64,000 nucleotides of DNA from NCBI RefSeq assembly GCF_009914755.1, contig NC_060944.1; one strand, 5' to 3'. The translations under genes and the position numbers were made by a program. The DNA is from the human T2T-CHM13v2.0 reference genome, Homo sapiens. The notes under the pieces are model-generated. The model saw nothing but the letters and a program-made list of their open reading frames with translations. It did no database searches and was not told the DNA's origin. How positions within the stretch are numbered: the first letter of the stretch is position 1; every line of letters begins with the position of its first letter. This document shows positions 22,944 through 26,809 of this stretch, in pieces.

Positions 22944-23005
22944 TATCAACTTTTTATAACTTTGAGTTTTGTACTATGTGTAGTATTGATTTAAAAATAT
23001 TTTTT

Positions 23006-25067
23006 CTGCTCTCGCTCTCGCTCTCGCTCTCCCTCTCCCTCTCTTTCCACGGTCTCCCTCTGATGCCGAGCGGAAGCTGGACTGTACTGCTGCCATCTAG
23101 GCTCACTGCAACCTCCCTGCCTGATTCTCCTGCCTCAGCCTGCCGAGTGCCTGCAATTGCAGGCGCGCGCAGCCACGCCTGACTGGTTTTCGTATTTTTT
23201 TGGTGGAGACGGGGTTTCACTGTGTTGGCCGGGCTGGTTTCCATCTCCTAACCGCGAGTGATCCGCCAGCCTCGGCCTCCGGAGGTGCCGGGATTGCAGA
23301 CGGTGTCTGGTTCACTCAGTGCTCAATGGTGCCCAGGCTGGAGTGCAGTGGCGTGATCTCGGCTCGCTACAACCTCCACCTCCCAGCCGCCTGCCTTGGC
23401 CTCCCAAAGTGCCGAGAGTGCAGCCTCTGCCCGGCCGCCACCCCGTCTGGGAAGTGAGGAGCGTCTCTGCCTGGCCGCCCATCGTCTGGGACGTGAGGAG
23501 GCCCTCTGCCTGGCTGCCCAGTCTGGAAAGTGAGGAGCGTCTCTGCCCGGCCGCCATCCCATCTAGGAAGTGAGGAGCGCCTCTTCCCGGCCGCCATCCC
23601 ATCTAGGAAGTGAGGAGTGGCTCTGCCCGGCCGCCCATTATCTGAGATGTGCAGAGCGCCTCTGCCCCGCCGCCCCGCCCCGTCTGGGATGTGAGGAGCG
23701 CCTCTGCCCGGCCACAACCCCGTCTGGGAGGTGAGGAGCGTCTCTGCCCAGCCGCCCCGTCTGAGAAGTGAGGAGACCCTCTGCCTGGCAACCGCCCCGT
23801 CTGAGAAGTGAGGAGCCCCTCCGCCCGGCAGCCACCCCATCTGGGAAGTGAGGAGCGTCTCTGCCCGGCAGCCACCCCGTCCGGGAGGGAGGTGGGGGTC
23901 AGCCCCCGCCAGGCCAGCCGCCCCGTCTGGGAGGGAGGTGGGGGGGGGTCAGCCCCCCGCCCGGCCAGCCTCCCTGTCCGGGAGGGAGGTGGGGGGTGTC
24001 AGCCCCCCGCCCGGCCAGCCGCCCCGTCCGGGAGGGAGTTGGGGGGGTCAGCCCCCCGCCCGGCCGGCCGCCCCGTCCGGGAGGGAGGTGGGGGGGTCAG
24101 CCCCCCGCCCGGCCAGCTGCCTCGTCCGGGAGGTGAGGGGCGCCTCTGCCCGGCCGCCCCTACTGGGAAATGAGGAGCCCCTCTGCCCGGCCAGCCGCCC
24201 CATCCGGGAGGGAGGTGGGGGGGTCAGCCCCCCGCCCGGCCAGCCGCCCCGTCCAGGAGGGAGGTGGGGGGTCAGCCCCCCGCCTGGCCAGCCGCCTCGT
24301 CCGGGAGGTGAGGGGCGCCTCTGCCCGGCCGCCCCTACTGGGAAATGAGGAGCCCCTCTGCCCGGCCAGCCGCCCCATCCGGGAGGGAGGTGGGGGGGTC
24401 AGCCCCCCGCCCGGCCAGCCGCCCCGTCCGGGAGGGAGGTGGGGGTCAGCCCCCCGCCCGGCCAGTCGCCTCGTCCGGGAGGTGAGGGGCGCCTCTGCCT
24501 GGCCACCCCTACTGGGAAGTGAGGAGCCCCTCTGCCCGGCCACCACCCCGTCTGGGAGGTGTACCCAACAGCTCATTGAGAACGGGCCATGATGACAATG
24601 GCGGTTTTGTGGAATAGAAAGGGGGGAAAGGTGGGGAAAAGATTGAGAAATCGGATGGTTGCCGTGTCTGTGCAGAAAGAAGTAGACATGGGAGACTTTT
24701 CATTTTGTTATGTACTAAGAAAAATTCTTCTGCCTTGGGATCCTGTTGATCTGTGACCTTACCCCCAACCCTGTGCTCTCTGAAACAGGTGCTGTGTCCA
24801 CTCAGGATTAAATGGGTCGGTGCAAGATGTGCTTTGTTAAACAGATGCTTGAAGGCAGCATGCTCGTTAAGAGTCATCACCACTCCCTAATCTCAAGTAC
24901 CCAGGGACACAAACACTGCGGAAGGCCGCAGGGTCCTCTGCCTAGGAAAACCAGAGACCTTTGTTCACTTGTTTATCTGCTGACCTTCCCTCCACTATTG
25001 TCCTATGACCCTGCTAAATCCCCCTCTGCGAGAAACACCCAAGAATGATCAATAAAAAAAAAAAAAA
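23006..25067 (+). mobile_element. SVA retrotransposon 1 (full length, unedited)
   Basis: (CGCTCT/CCCTCT)n hexamer 23006-23045, antisense Alu-like ~23046-23430, GC-rich VNTR ~23430-24560, SINE-R ~24561-25056 ending AATAAA + poly(A). Confidence 0.97.
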
Positions 25068-25092
25068 GAATTTAAAAAAAAATATATTTTTT

Positions 25093-26697
25093 CCTCTCCC
25101 TCTCCCTCTCCCCACGGTCTCCCTCTCCCTCTCCCCACAGTCTCCCTCTCCCTCTCTTTCCACGGTCTTCCTCTGATGCCGAGCCAAGGCTGGACTGTGC
25201 TGCCGCCGTCTCGGCTCACTGCGGCCTTCCTGCCTGGTTCTCCTGCCTCAGCCTGCCGAGTGCCTGCGATTGCGGGCCGCACCGCCACCCCTGACTGGTT
25301 TTCGTATTTTTTTGGTGGAGACGGGTTTTCGCTGTGTTGGCCGGGCTGGTCTCCAGCTCCTGACCGCAAGTGATCCGCCAGCCTCGGCCTCCCGAGGTGC
25401 CGGGATTGCAGACGGAGTGCTCAGTGCTCAGTGGTGCCCAGGCTGGAGTGCAGTGGCGTGATCTCGGCTCGCTACAGCCTCCACCTCCCAGCCGCCTGCC
25501 TTGGCCTCCCAAAGTGCCGAGATTGCAGCCTCTGCCTGGCCGCCACCCCGTCTGGGAGGTGGGGAGCGTCTCTGCCTGGCCACCCATCGTCTGGGATGTG
25601 AGGAGCCCCTCTGCCTGGCTGCCCAGTCTCGAAAGTGGGGAGCGTCTCTGCCCGGCCGCCATCCCATCTAGGAAGTGAGGAGCGGCTCTGCCCTCCCGCC
25701 CATCGTCTGAGCTGTGGGGAGCGCCTCTGCCCTGCTGCCCCGTCTGGGATGTGAGGAGCGCCTCTGCCCGGCCGCGACCCCGTCTGGGAGGTGAGGAGTG
25801 TCTCTGCCCAGCCGCCCCGTCTGGGAAGTGAGGAGCCCCTCCGCCCGGCAGCCGCCCCGTCTGAGAAGTGAGGAGCCCCTCCGCCGGGCAGCCACCCCAT
25901 CTGGGAAGTGAGGAGCGTCTCCGCCCGGCAGCCACCCCGTCCGGGAGGGTGGTGGGGGTCAGCCCCCGCCCGGCTGGCCGCCCCGTCCGGGAGGGAGGTG
26001 GGGGGGTCAGCCCCCCGACCCGGCCGGCCGCCCCGTCTGGGAGGGAGGTGGGGGGGTCAGCCCCCCGCCCGGCCGGCCACCCCATCCGGGAGGTGAGGGG
26101 CGCCTCTGCCCGGCCGCCCCTACTGGGAAGTGAGGAGCCCCTCTGCCCGGCCGCCACCCCGTCTGGGAGGTGTGCCCAGCGGCTCATTGGGAACGGGCCA
26201 TGATGACAATGGTGGTTTTGTGGAGTAGAGGAGGGGGAAGGGTGGGGAGAAGATTGAGAAGTCGGATGGTTGCTGTGTCTGTGTGGAGGGGGGTGGACAT
26301 GGGAGACTTTTCACTTTGTTCTGTGGTAGGAAAGGTTCTTCTGCCTTGGGATCCTGTTGATCTATGACCTTGCCCCCAGCCCTGTGCTCTCTGGAACATG
26401 TGCTGTGTCCACTCAGGGTTGGGTGGATTGAGGGCGGTGCAGGATGTGCTTTGTTGGGCAGATGCTTGAGGGCAGCATGCTCGTTGACAGTCATCACCAC
26501 TCCCTAGTCTCGGGTGCCCAGGGACACAGACACTGCGGAGAGCCGCAGGGTCCTCTGCCTGGGAAGACCAGAGACCTTTGTTCACTTGTTTGTCTGCTGA
26601 CCTTCCCTTCACTGTTGTCCTATGACCCTGCGGAATCCCCCTTTGCGAGAAACACCCAAGAGTGATCAATGGAAAAAAAAAAAAAAACAAAGAAAAA
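25093..26697 (+). mobile_element. SVA retrotransposon 2 (full length, A-to-G hypermutated)
   Basis: (CCCTCT)n 25093-25160, Alu-like to ~25530, VNTR to ~26170, SINE-R to ~26670, poly(A); pervasive A>G relative to SVA 1. Confidence 0.97.
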
Positions 26698-26698
26698 A

Positions 26699-26799
26699 GG
26701 AACAGAAGCAAATGTGGCAACATCTTGATAACTGTTGGAACTGGACGTTGGGTACATGGGGTTCATTAAACTCTTTTCTCTAAAAAAAAAAAAAAAAAA
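26699..26799 (+). other. Probable SVA-mediated 3' transduction with second poly(A)
   Basis: ~83 bp non-SVA sequence, ATTAAA 26765-26770, A18 at 26782-26799, then AAAAATATTTTTT matching the 5' target site. Confidence 0.75.
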
Positions 26800-26809
26800 T
26801 ATTTTTTTA

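What the first reader, a model, noticed from the sequence alone, without database searches (positions are those of the whole stretch)
25093..26697. SVA with genome-fixed, strand-specific A-to-G hypermutation: an ADAR-hyper-edited RNA retrotransposed into DNA
Seen, comparing the SINE-R of SVA2 (26171-26673) with neighbouring SVA1 (24561-25056): about 45 A>G changes in ~500 bp by manual count, against roughly 10-15 other differences and almost no T>C. Examples: GTACCCAACAGC>GTGCCCAGCGGC; AGAAAGAAGTAGAC>GGAGGGGGGTGGAC; GTTAAACAG>GTTGGGCAG; CTAATCTCAAGTACCC>CTAGTCTCGGGTGCCC; AATAAA>AATGGA. The Alu-like part shows the same (TGCAACC>TGCGGCC, CTGATT>CTGGTT, CTACAACC>CTACAGCC). Only ~3 changed As have a 5' G, and in GAA runs the first A is usually spared (GAAT>GAGT, GAAA>GAGG). 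Established: depletion of 5' G and clustering are the ADAR hyper-editing signature; reverse transcriptase reads inosine as G; the A state matches the HERV-K LTR-derived SVA consensus, including its poly(A) signal. Inference: an SVA transcript duplexed along its whole length was hyper-edited and then inserted by L1 ORF2p in the germline. That would make RNA editing a heritable DNA mutagen, distinct from the better known APOBEC3 G>A editing of retroelements. I cannot tell whether this copy has been reported before.
Basis: partly seen in the sequence, partly recalled or inferred. Interest (0 to 1): 0.95.

Follow-up and report, generated by a model that had tools for sequence, protein, structure and literature searches.

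The report
RNA-edited jumping gene fixed in DNA
A human SVA retrotransposon copy next to PXMP4 differs from its relatives by about 70 one-way A-to-G changes with the neighbour preference of the RNA-editing enzyme ADAR, so it was likely edited as RNA and then copied into the germline genome, which would make RNA editing a source of inherited DNA change.

Summary
Observation confirmed. SVA2 (25093-26687, +) differs from neighbouring SVA1 in the SINE-R by 46 A>G and 1 T>C, and from 17 of 17 closer copies by 43-49 A>G and 0-3 T>C. A is the shared state elsewhere. The changed fraction by 5' neighbour is T 14/19, A 27/52, C 3/31, G 3/38, close to the ADAR order U>A>C>G (PMC3113232). No A>C or A>T accompanies them. 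Best reading (0.85): ADAR hyper-edited an SVA RNA, then L1 machinery inserted it. The duplex partner, the parent and a clean target-site duplication were not found, and local clustering is not significant. No daughter copy turned up. Other SVAs carry smaller clusters of the same kind: 2 clear cases among 48 copies sampled without regard to A>G, plus a five-copy group sharing 6-7 A>G. ADAR marks in integrated DNA are published for retroviral proviruses. For SVA, ten searches found no report, but Carmi 2011, which I recall may mention such copies, is not held. New variant of a known kind.

The parts
25093..26687 (+). SVA2, full-length SVA with sense-strand A>G hypermutation (72 A>G over the whole element against one real relative, L008)
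25093..25164 (+). CCCTCT hexamer region
   Evidence: period 6, 11 copies, 25093-25156
25165..25530 (+). Alu-like domain; 6-16 A>G against 1-4 T>C in 14 full comparisons; private 7-8 bp deletion near 25418 found nowhere else
25528..26172 (+). VNTR (40- and 50-bp units); weaker A>G excess, alignment noisy
26171..26673 (+). SINE-R; about 47 of 140 As changed to G (34%)
26668..26673 (+). poly(A) signal position reading AATGGA; SVA1 reads AATAAA at 25051-25056
26673..26687 (+). 15-A tail, unchanged
26688..26808 (+). 94-bp old repeat fragment (L1M-like, label recalled) with ATTAAA at 26765-26770, A18 at 26782-26799 and TATTTTTTT at 26800-26808; native flank or 3' transduction, unresolved
23006..25067 (+). 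SVA1, unedited neighbour of another subgroup, directly upstream; flanked by AAAAATATTTTTT (22993-23005) and an expanded copy (25074-25092); internal control, not the parent

Best explanation
SVA2 carries A-to-G changes at about a third of its SINE-R adenosines, on the sense strand only and in ADAR's neighbour order, so it is likely the DNA copy of an SVA transcript that ADAR hyper-edited while the RNA was likely paired with an antisense SVA sequence, and that L1 reverse transcriptase likely then inserted in the germline, reading inosine as G. Shown: the spectrum, strand, polarity, context, spread over all domains, a symmetric A>G/T>C spectrum in the flanking Alu, and no daughter copy found. 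Inferred: the enzyme; the partner (an inverted SVA in the same pre-mRNA, or an antisense transcript at the source locus, since the SVA's own fold does not explain the sites); the insertion route; and an age before the human-chimpanzee split. The changed poly(A) signal suggests that editing followed 3' end formation, or that the source's genomic A tract served as tail (inference).
For: 47 A>G, 0 T>C, 0 A>C, 0 A>T against L008 in the SINE-R. 43-49 against 0-3 in 17 of 17 subgroup copies. 32-47 against 0-4 in 29 of 29 best-scoring copies. 5' neighbour T 14/19, A 27/52, C 3/31, G 3/38, with T/A against C/G at p 3.3e-10; human ADAR1 and ADAR2 prefer 5' U>A>C>G and edit up to 50-60% of As in long duplexes (PMC3113232, passages). 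Only 3 of 47 changes create CpG, so reversed CpG decay is excluded. Edits occur in all eight 200-nt bins, 12-38% of As. The adjacent Alu shows 1-14 A>G against 2-12 T>C with 12 window Alus. The same signature appears in other SVAs: L053 (15 A>G, 1 T>C, Alu-like), L063 (10:0, SINE-R), L013 (7 A>G as the only differences from sibling L015). Inosine is read as G in reverse transcription (PMC5224506). ADAR-type A>G clusters are seen in integrated BLV proviruses (PMC8025556).
Against: No duplex partner found: no inverted repeat longer than 311 nt in the window, and the self-fold of L008 gives no higher pairing at edited As (0.41 against 0.45; SINE-R 0.35 against 0.47; longest helix 11 bp). No parent sharing the private deletion. 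No clean target-site duplication around SVA2 alone. No local clustering beyond context (p 0.35). The 3' G preference is weak (13/30 against 34/110). C and G are about equal as 5' neighbours in the SINE-R. No editing was seen in over 2.5 kb of L1 RNA in cell assays (PMC5224506), and hyper-edited RNA is described as retained in the nucleus (PMC9148063). Only one assembly was examined.
Confidence: 0.85

Rival explanations
1. ADAR edited the RNA, but the edits entered the genome by RNA- or cDNA-templated conversion of an SVA already sitting here, not by a new insertion.
For: No clean target-site duplication. No parent with the private deletion elsewhere. PXMP4 ends about 430 bp downstream on the minus strand, so read-through would give an antisense partner at this locus (annotation supplied with the task).
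Against: SVA1, directly upstream and under the same read-through, has 0 rare A>G in its SINE-R. The changes span 25199-26672, hexamer side to tail, as for one full transcript. The same signature in dispersed copies with daughters is simpler to explain by retrotransposition.
Confidence: 0.05
2. A DNA-level process made the changes: ADAR acting on the DNA strand of an RNA:DNA hybrid, or an error-prone polymerase such as Pol eta, whose hotspot is A after A or T (both recalled from general knowledge).
For: The T/A 5' preference is also the WA motif (41/71 against 6/69).
Against: No A>C or A>T accompanies 47 A>G, whereas Pol eta gives all three (recalled). A rate of 34% of As is far above polymerase error. 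Deamination of first-strand cDNA would read as T>C on the sense strand, the opposite of what is seen. The flanking Alu is symmetric.
Confidence: 0.05
3. The Gs are an assembly or sequencing artefact, or are private to the CHM13 cell line.
For: Only one assembly was available. No second copy supports the sequence.
Against: A base-calling error would not follow the element's sense strand across copies on both genomic strands, nor ADAR context. SVA2 also has 8 private non-A>G changes against a mean of 4.3 in 48 copies, as expected of an old insertion. Four copies on four chromosomes have identical SINE-Rs with a shared A>G set.
Confidence: 0.03
4. Polarity is reversed: G is ancestral and the other copies became A through APOBEC3 G>A editing or CpG decay.
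For: Carmi 2011 is cited as finding editing in 20% of SVAs, read as APOBEC G>A (PMC4982230; PMC9706992).
Against: A is the majority state at all 46 sites across several subgroups. Only 3 of 47 sites are CpG. SVA2 otherwise groups within one subgroup and not outside the family.
Confidence: 0.02

Closest known systems
ADAR-type A-to-G hypermutation in integrated retroviral proviruses (BLV; HTLV-2 and STLV-3 cited there) - PMC8025556, passages
   Same: Sense-strand A>G clusters that reach DNA through reverse transcription of edited RNA.
   Different: Those are somatic proviruses with 7 or more changes in about 70 bp of U3. Here the element is a non-autonomous, L1-mobilised retrotransposon in the reference genome, with about 70 changes over 1.5 kb.
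APOBEC3 'DNA editing' of retrotransposons (Carmi, Church, Levanon 2011; seen only through PMC4982230 and PMC9706992; method seen in PMC4866542)
   Same: Many same-type substitutions written into one retroelement in a single retrotransposition round, then inherited.
   Different: Opposite direction (G>A), cDNA substrate, different enzyme. I recall, unverified, that the 2011 paper also mentions one or two A>G (ADAR-like) SVAs; the paper is not held.
Ultra- or hyper-edited human RNAs (PMC3197674, passages)
   Same: Dense A>G with 5' G depletion, arising in long duplexes of inverted repeats.
   Different: Those are RNA-versus-genome differences, mostly in Alu; the text has no occurrence of 'SVA' or 'retrotranspos'. 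Here the change is in the DNA.
ADAR1 restriction of L1 (PMC5224506, passages)
   Same: ADAR meets retrotransposon RNA.
   Different: Restriction there is editing-independent and no edits were found in L1 RNA; this copy implies catalytic editing of a transcript that still inserted.

Membership tests
SVA retrotransposon | CCCTCT hexamer, Alu-like, VNTR and SINE-R in order | tested here: met
   domain list from PMC4859970
SVA retrotransposon | poly(A) tail | tested here: met
   15 As at 26673-26687
SVA retrotransposon | target-site duplication at an L1 endonuclease site | tested here: inconclusive
   No duplication directly after the tail; an A(n)TATTTTTT match appears only if 26688-26799 is a transduction, which searches do not support
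SVA retrotransposon | subfamily A-F by diagnostic sites | not testable with these tools
   No labelled consensus available; SVA2 groups with L008, L021 and L025, apart from SVA1
ADAR hyper-editing footprint | A>G dominant on the transcribed strand, no T>C excess | tested here: met
   47:0, p 2.9e-14
ADAR hyper-editing footprint | 5' neighbour U>A>C>G, with G depleted | tested here: met
   74%, 52%, 10%, 8%; C and G not separated in the SINE-R alone
ADAR hyper-editing footprint | 3' G preferred | tested here: inconclusive
   G 13/30, A 19/53, T 8/28, C 7/29
ADAR hyper-editing footprint | edited fraction within the 50-60% ceiling of long duplexes | tested here: met
   about 34% of SINE-R As (ceiling from PMC3113232)
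ADAR hyper-editing footprint | long double-stranded partner | tested here: inconclusive
   None in the window or in the self-fold; the source locus is unknown
ADAR hyper-editing footprint | local clustering beyond sequence context | tested here: not met
   21 against 19.6 close pairs, p 0.35
ADAR hyper-editing footprint | inosine in the RNA, dependence on ADAR | not testable with these tools
   ancient event; needs an assay
APOBEC3-edited retroelement | sense-strand G>A clusters against the ancestral state | tested here: not met
   1 G>A against 47 A>G
Pol eta WA mutagenesis (features recalled) | A>C and A>T alongside A>G | tested here: not met
   0 A>C and 0 A>T in the SINE-R against L008

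The most novel reading that the evidence does not exclude
ADAR editing is a recurring, heritable mutagen of the whole SVA family. SVA2 is the extreme case, several per cent of copies carry local footprints, edited copies have served as source elements, and part of the diagnostic sequence of a young clade of at least 116 copies arose by editing of its founder. Some of the SVA 'editing' earlier read as APOBEC G>A may be these A>G events read backwards.
Probability: 0.45. Interest if true: 0.85.

Novelty: new variant of a known kind. Interest (0 to 1): 0.68.

Why it matters
It is a fossil of RNA editing written into the human genome. A 2016 review says that roles for ADAR editing in Alu subfamily evolution and in suppressing retrotransposition by mutation have 'not yet been determined' (PMC4982230), and cell assays found L1 RNA unedited (PMC5224506). 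SVA2 and its lesser relatives make the question directly testable by a strand-aware scan of all SVAs and polymorphic insertions. They imply that heavily inosine-containing RNA can reach ORF2p in the germline or early embryo. They also matter for practice: such copies inflate divergence-based ages, distort subfamily calls, and can pass as RNA editing when reads from them are mapped to a paralogue.

Tried and rejected
SVA1 as parent: rejected, the two differ at subgroup sites and by private deletions. Daughters or parent of SVA2: best other copies reach 90%, 93% and 91% identity (40 scored of 1945, 5076 and 975 candidates). A 30-nt edited stretch with up to 2 mismatches found one other place, which shares two of its Gs; the deletion junction with up to 3 mismatches found only SVA2. 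3' transduction caused by the lost poly(A) signal: attractive (ATTAAA 11 nt before a second A run, then a TSD-like stretch), but the 94 bp has no source elsewhere, and the flank upstream of SVA1 continues the same old repeat in 1 of 6 paralogues (L035, 0 of 200 shuffles). I lean to native flank; unresolved. Self-folding as the duplex: not supported. Local clustering: not supported. L038 as outgroup: it has A at 31 of 32 covered sites but is an unlabelled truncated piece, so I did not count it as an outgroup. In the unbiased Alu-like sample total A>G (32) does not exceed T>C (33), p 0.074 after base content; the signal there is overdispersion (variance 8.4 against 0.77) driven mainly by L053. 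One search gave nothing (index slip), repeated. Literature: ten searches found no report of an ADAR-edited SVA insertion. Carmi 2011 and Knisbacher and Levanon 2015 are not held, so prior report stays open; their supplements could list this copy.

Full report
Anatomy. The window holds two SVAs head to tail on the + strand, just beyond the 3' end of PXMP4: SVA1 (23006-25067) and SVA2 (25093-26687). [quoted passage not shown] SVA1 is flanked by AAAAATATTTTTT (22993-23005) and an expanded copy (25074-25092). The two belong to different subgroups, so SVA1 is a control and not the parent. Subfamily letters could not be assigned.

Observation. Against SVA1 the SINE-R of SVA2 shows 46 A>G, 1 T>C and 14 other substitutions; the Alu-like part shows 13 A>G and 2 T>C. 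Against the 29 best-scoring other copies it shows 32-47 A>G and 0-4 T>C; that set is biased towards copies sharing Gs. Against 17 copies of its own subgroup it shows 43-49 A>G and 0-3 T>C. Against L008 it shows 47 A>G, 4 C>T, 1 G>A, 3 transversions at C or G, and no T>C, A>C or A>T; p 2.9e-14. Over the whole element there are 72 A>G, 18 G>A, 17 C>T and 8 T>C, with A>G in every 200-nt bin at 12-38% of As; the VNTR share is noisy.

Unbiased sample. A 24-nt SINE-R motif has 1020 exact matches in the genome. I took the first 50 of the 100 listed, all on chromosome 1; 48 had a full SINE-R and 2 partial ones were dropped. The motif misses copies that vary inside it (about 2,700 SVAs exist, PMC9706992), so some subfamilies may be absent. 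At SVA2's 46 scored sites A is held by at least 90% of these copies at 36 sites, by at least 70% at 44 and by at least 50% at all. G is therefore derived.

Context. Changed fraction by 5' neighbour: T 14/19, A 27/52, C 3/31, G 3/38; by 3' neighbour: G 13/30, A 19/53, T 8/28, C 7/29. Human ADAR1 and ADAR2 prefer 5' U>A>C>G, the 5' base matters most, and 50-60% of As in long duplexes can be edited (PMC3113232). The first A of GAA is spared in 13 of 15 cases and only 3 of 47 changes make a CpG. Against the reading: no clustering beyond context (p 0.35) and only a weak 3' G preference. The Alu just downstream is symmetric against 12 window Alus, so the flank does not share the bias.

Mechanism. 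Shown: a one-way, sense-strand, ADAR-context A>G load across one transcript-length unit. Inferred: ADAR deaminated the RNA in a long duplex, reverse transcriptase read inosine as G (PMC5224506), and L1 ORF2p inserted the copy. The partner is not the SVA's own fold: in the relative L008, pairing at edited As is 0.41 against 0.45 at spared As and the longest helix is 11 bp. No inverted SVA lies in the window (longest inverted arms 311 nt). Since the SINE-R is edited, an inverted SVA or an antisense transcript at the unknown source locus is the likely partner. The first two As of the A tract are changed, destroying AATAAA, while the tail is intact. SVA2 has 8 private non-A>G changes in the SINE-R against a mean of 4.3 in the sample, which suggests an old insertion that apes should share.

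3' junction. After the tail come 94 bp of an old repeat, ATTAAA, A18 and TATTTTTTT. This looks like a 3' transduction ending in a TSD, but the 94 bp is unique in the genome and the flank before SVA1 continues the same repeat in one of six paralogues. If the stretch is native, SVA2 has no clear TSD. Unresolved.

No offspring. No other copy exceeds 90-93% identity among those scored, and whole-genome pattern counts found no copy sharing the edited stretch or the private deletion.

Family-wide signal. In the 48 unbiased SINE-Rs, rare A>G total 71 against 33 T>C (p 0.01), with 5' T 20, A 33, C 14, G 4 (p 6.7e-5 for T/A against C/G). Clear clusters: L063 (10 A>G, 0 T>C) and L053 (15:1, Alu-like, among 29 with that domain). 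Borderline: L047 (6) and L077 (5), a level that CpG-type changes also reach. No copy has more than 4 T>C. Among copies found through SVA2: L003, L006, L007 and L020 have 14-19 A>G against their nearest quiet copy, L009 has 14 in the Alu-like domain, and L013 differs from its sibling L015 by 7 A>G and nothing else in 370 bp. L010, L011, L013 and L015 have identical SINE-Rs and L047 differs by one base; they share 6-7 A>G beyond their clade, so an edited copy likely acted as a source. Their clade shares five A>G within 19 nt at the SINE-R start, with 116 exact matches in the genome; it may be SVA_E or SVA_F (recalled, untested). That founder cluster is weaker evidence: 7 A>G among 16 differences, two after G.

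Literature. All papers were seen as keyword passages, none whole, no supplements: PMC8143547, PMC4982230, PMC5224506, PMC4866542, PMC5640379 (no hits for editing terms), PMC2873906, PMC3197674, PMC8208052, PMC3113232, PMC9148063, PMC8025556, PMC9706992, PMC4859970. ADAR-type A>G clusters in integrated BLV DNA are published. Carmi 2011 is cited for editing of 20% of SVAs, read as APOBEC3. I recall, without being able to check, that it also notes A>G-edited SVAs; I put the chance that this copy or its kind was mentioned there at about one half. Ten searches found no such report in the held library, which lacks most subscription journals.

Verdict. Real feature. ADAR-edited RNA retrotransposed into the genome, 0.85. 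New variant of a known kind. Interest 0.68, held down by the proviral precedent and a possible earlier mention, held up by the extremity of this copy and the testable family-wide signal.

Noticed in passing
L053, L063 (=L005), L003, L006, L007, L009, L020: Other SVA copies with local sense-strand A>G clusters of 10-19 changes and T/A 5' context, mostly confined to one domain; L006 also shows many A>G by eye in its Alu-like and VNTR parts.
   Followed up: partly
L013 with L088 (G000:C17:28151591-28155890): A young copy whose Alu-like domain differs from sibling L015 by 7 A>G and nothing else in 370 bp; the cleanest single-round case.
   Followed up: partly
L010, L011, L013, L015, L047: Five dispersed copies with near-identical SINE-R sharing 6-7 A>G beyond their clade, suggesting an edited source element.
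   Followed up: partly
L007, L010, L075 and others; start of SINE-R: A clade with five shared A>G in 19 nt; 116 exact matches genome-wide. Possible edited founder of a human-specific subfamily.
   Followed up: partly
window 22993-23005, 25074-25092, 26782-26808: Two SVAs and an Alu sit at near-identical A(n)TATTTTTT stretches, suggesting repeated use of one L1 endonuclease target.
   Followed up: partly
window 24222-25644: Two RefSeq enhancer annotations cover the 3' part of SVA1 and the 5' part of SVA2 (annotation supplied with the task).
   Followed up: no
G000:C19:20275689-20275959 (+) and C19:20289553-20289823 (-): Two SVA SINE-Rs 14 kb apart in opposite orientation, both among the best matches to SVA2's edited 3' half; a possible inverted pair or local duplication.
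   Followed up: no
window 24813-24818: SVA1 has a private 6-bp deletion in its SINE-R relative to SVA2.
   Followed up: no
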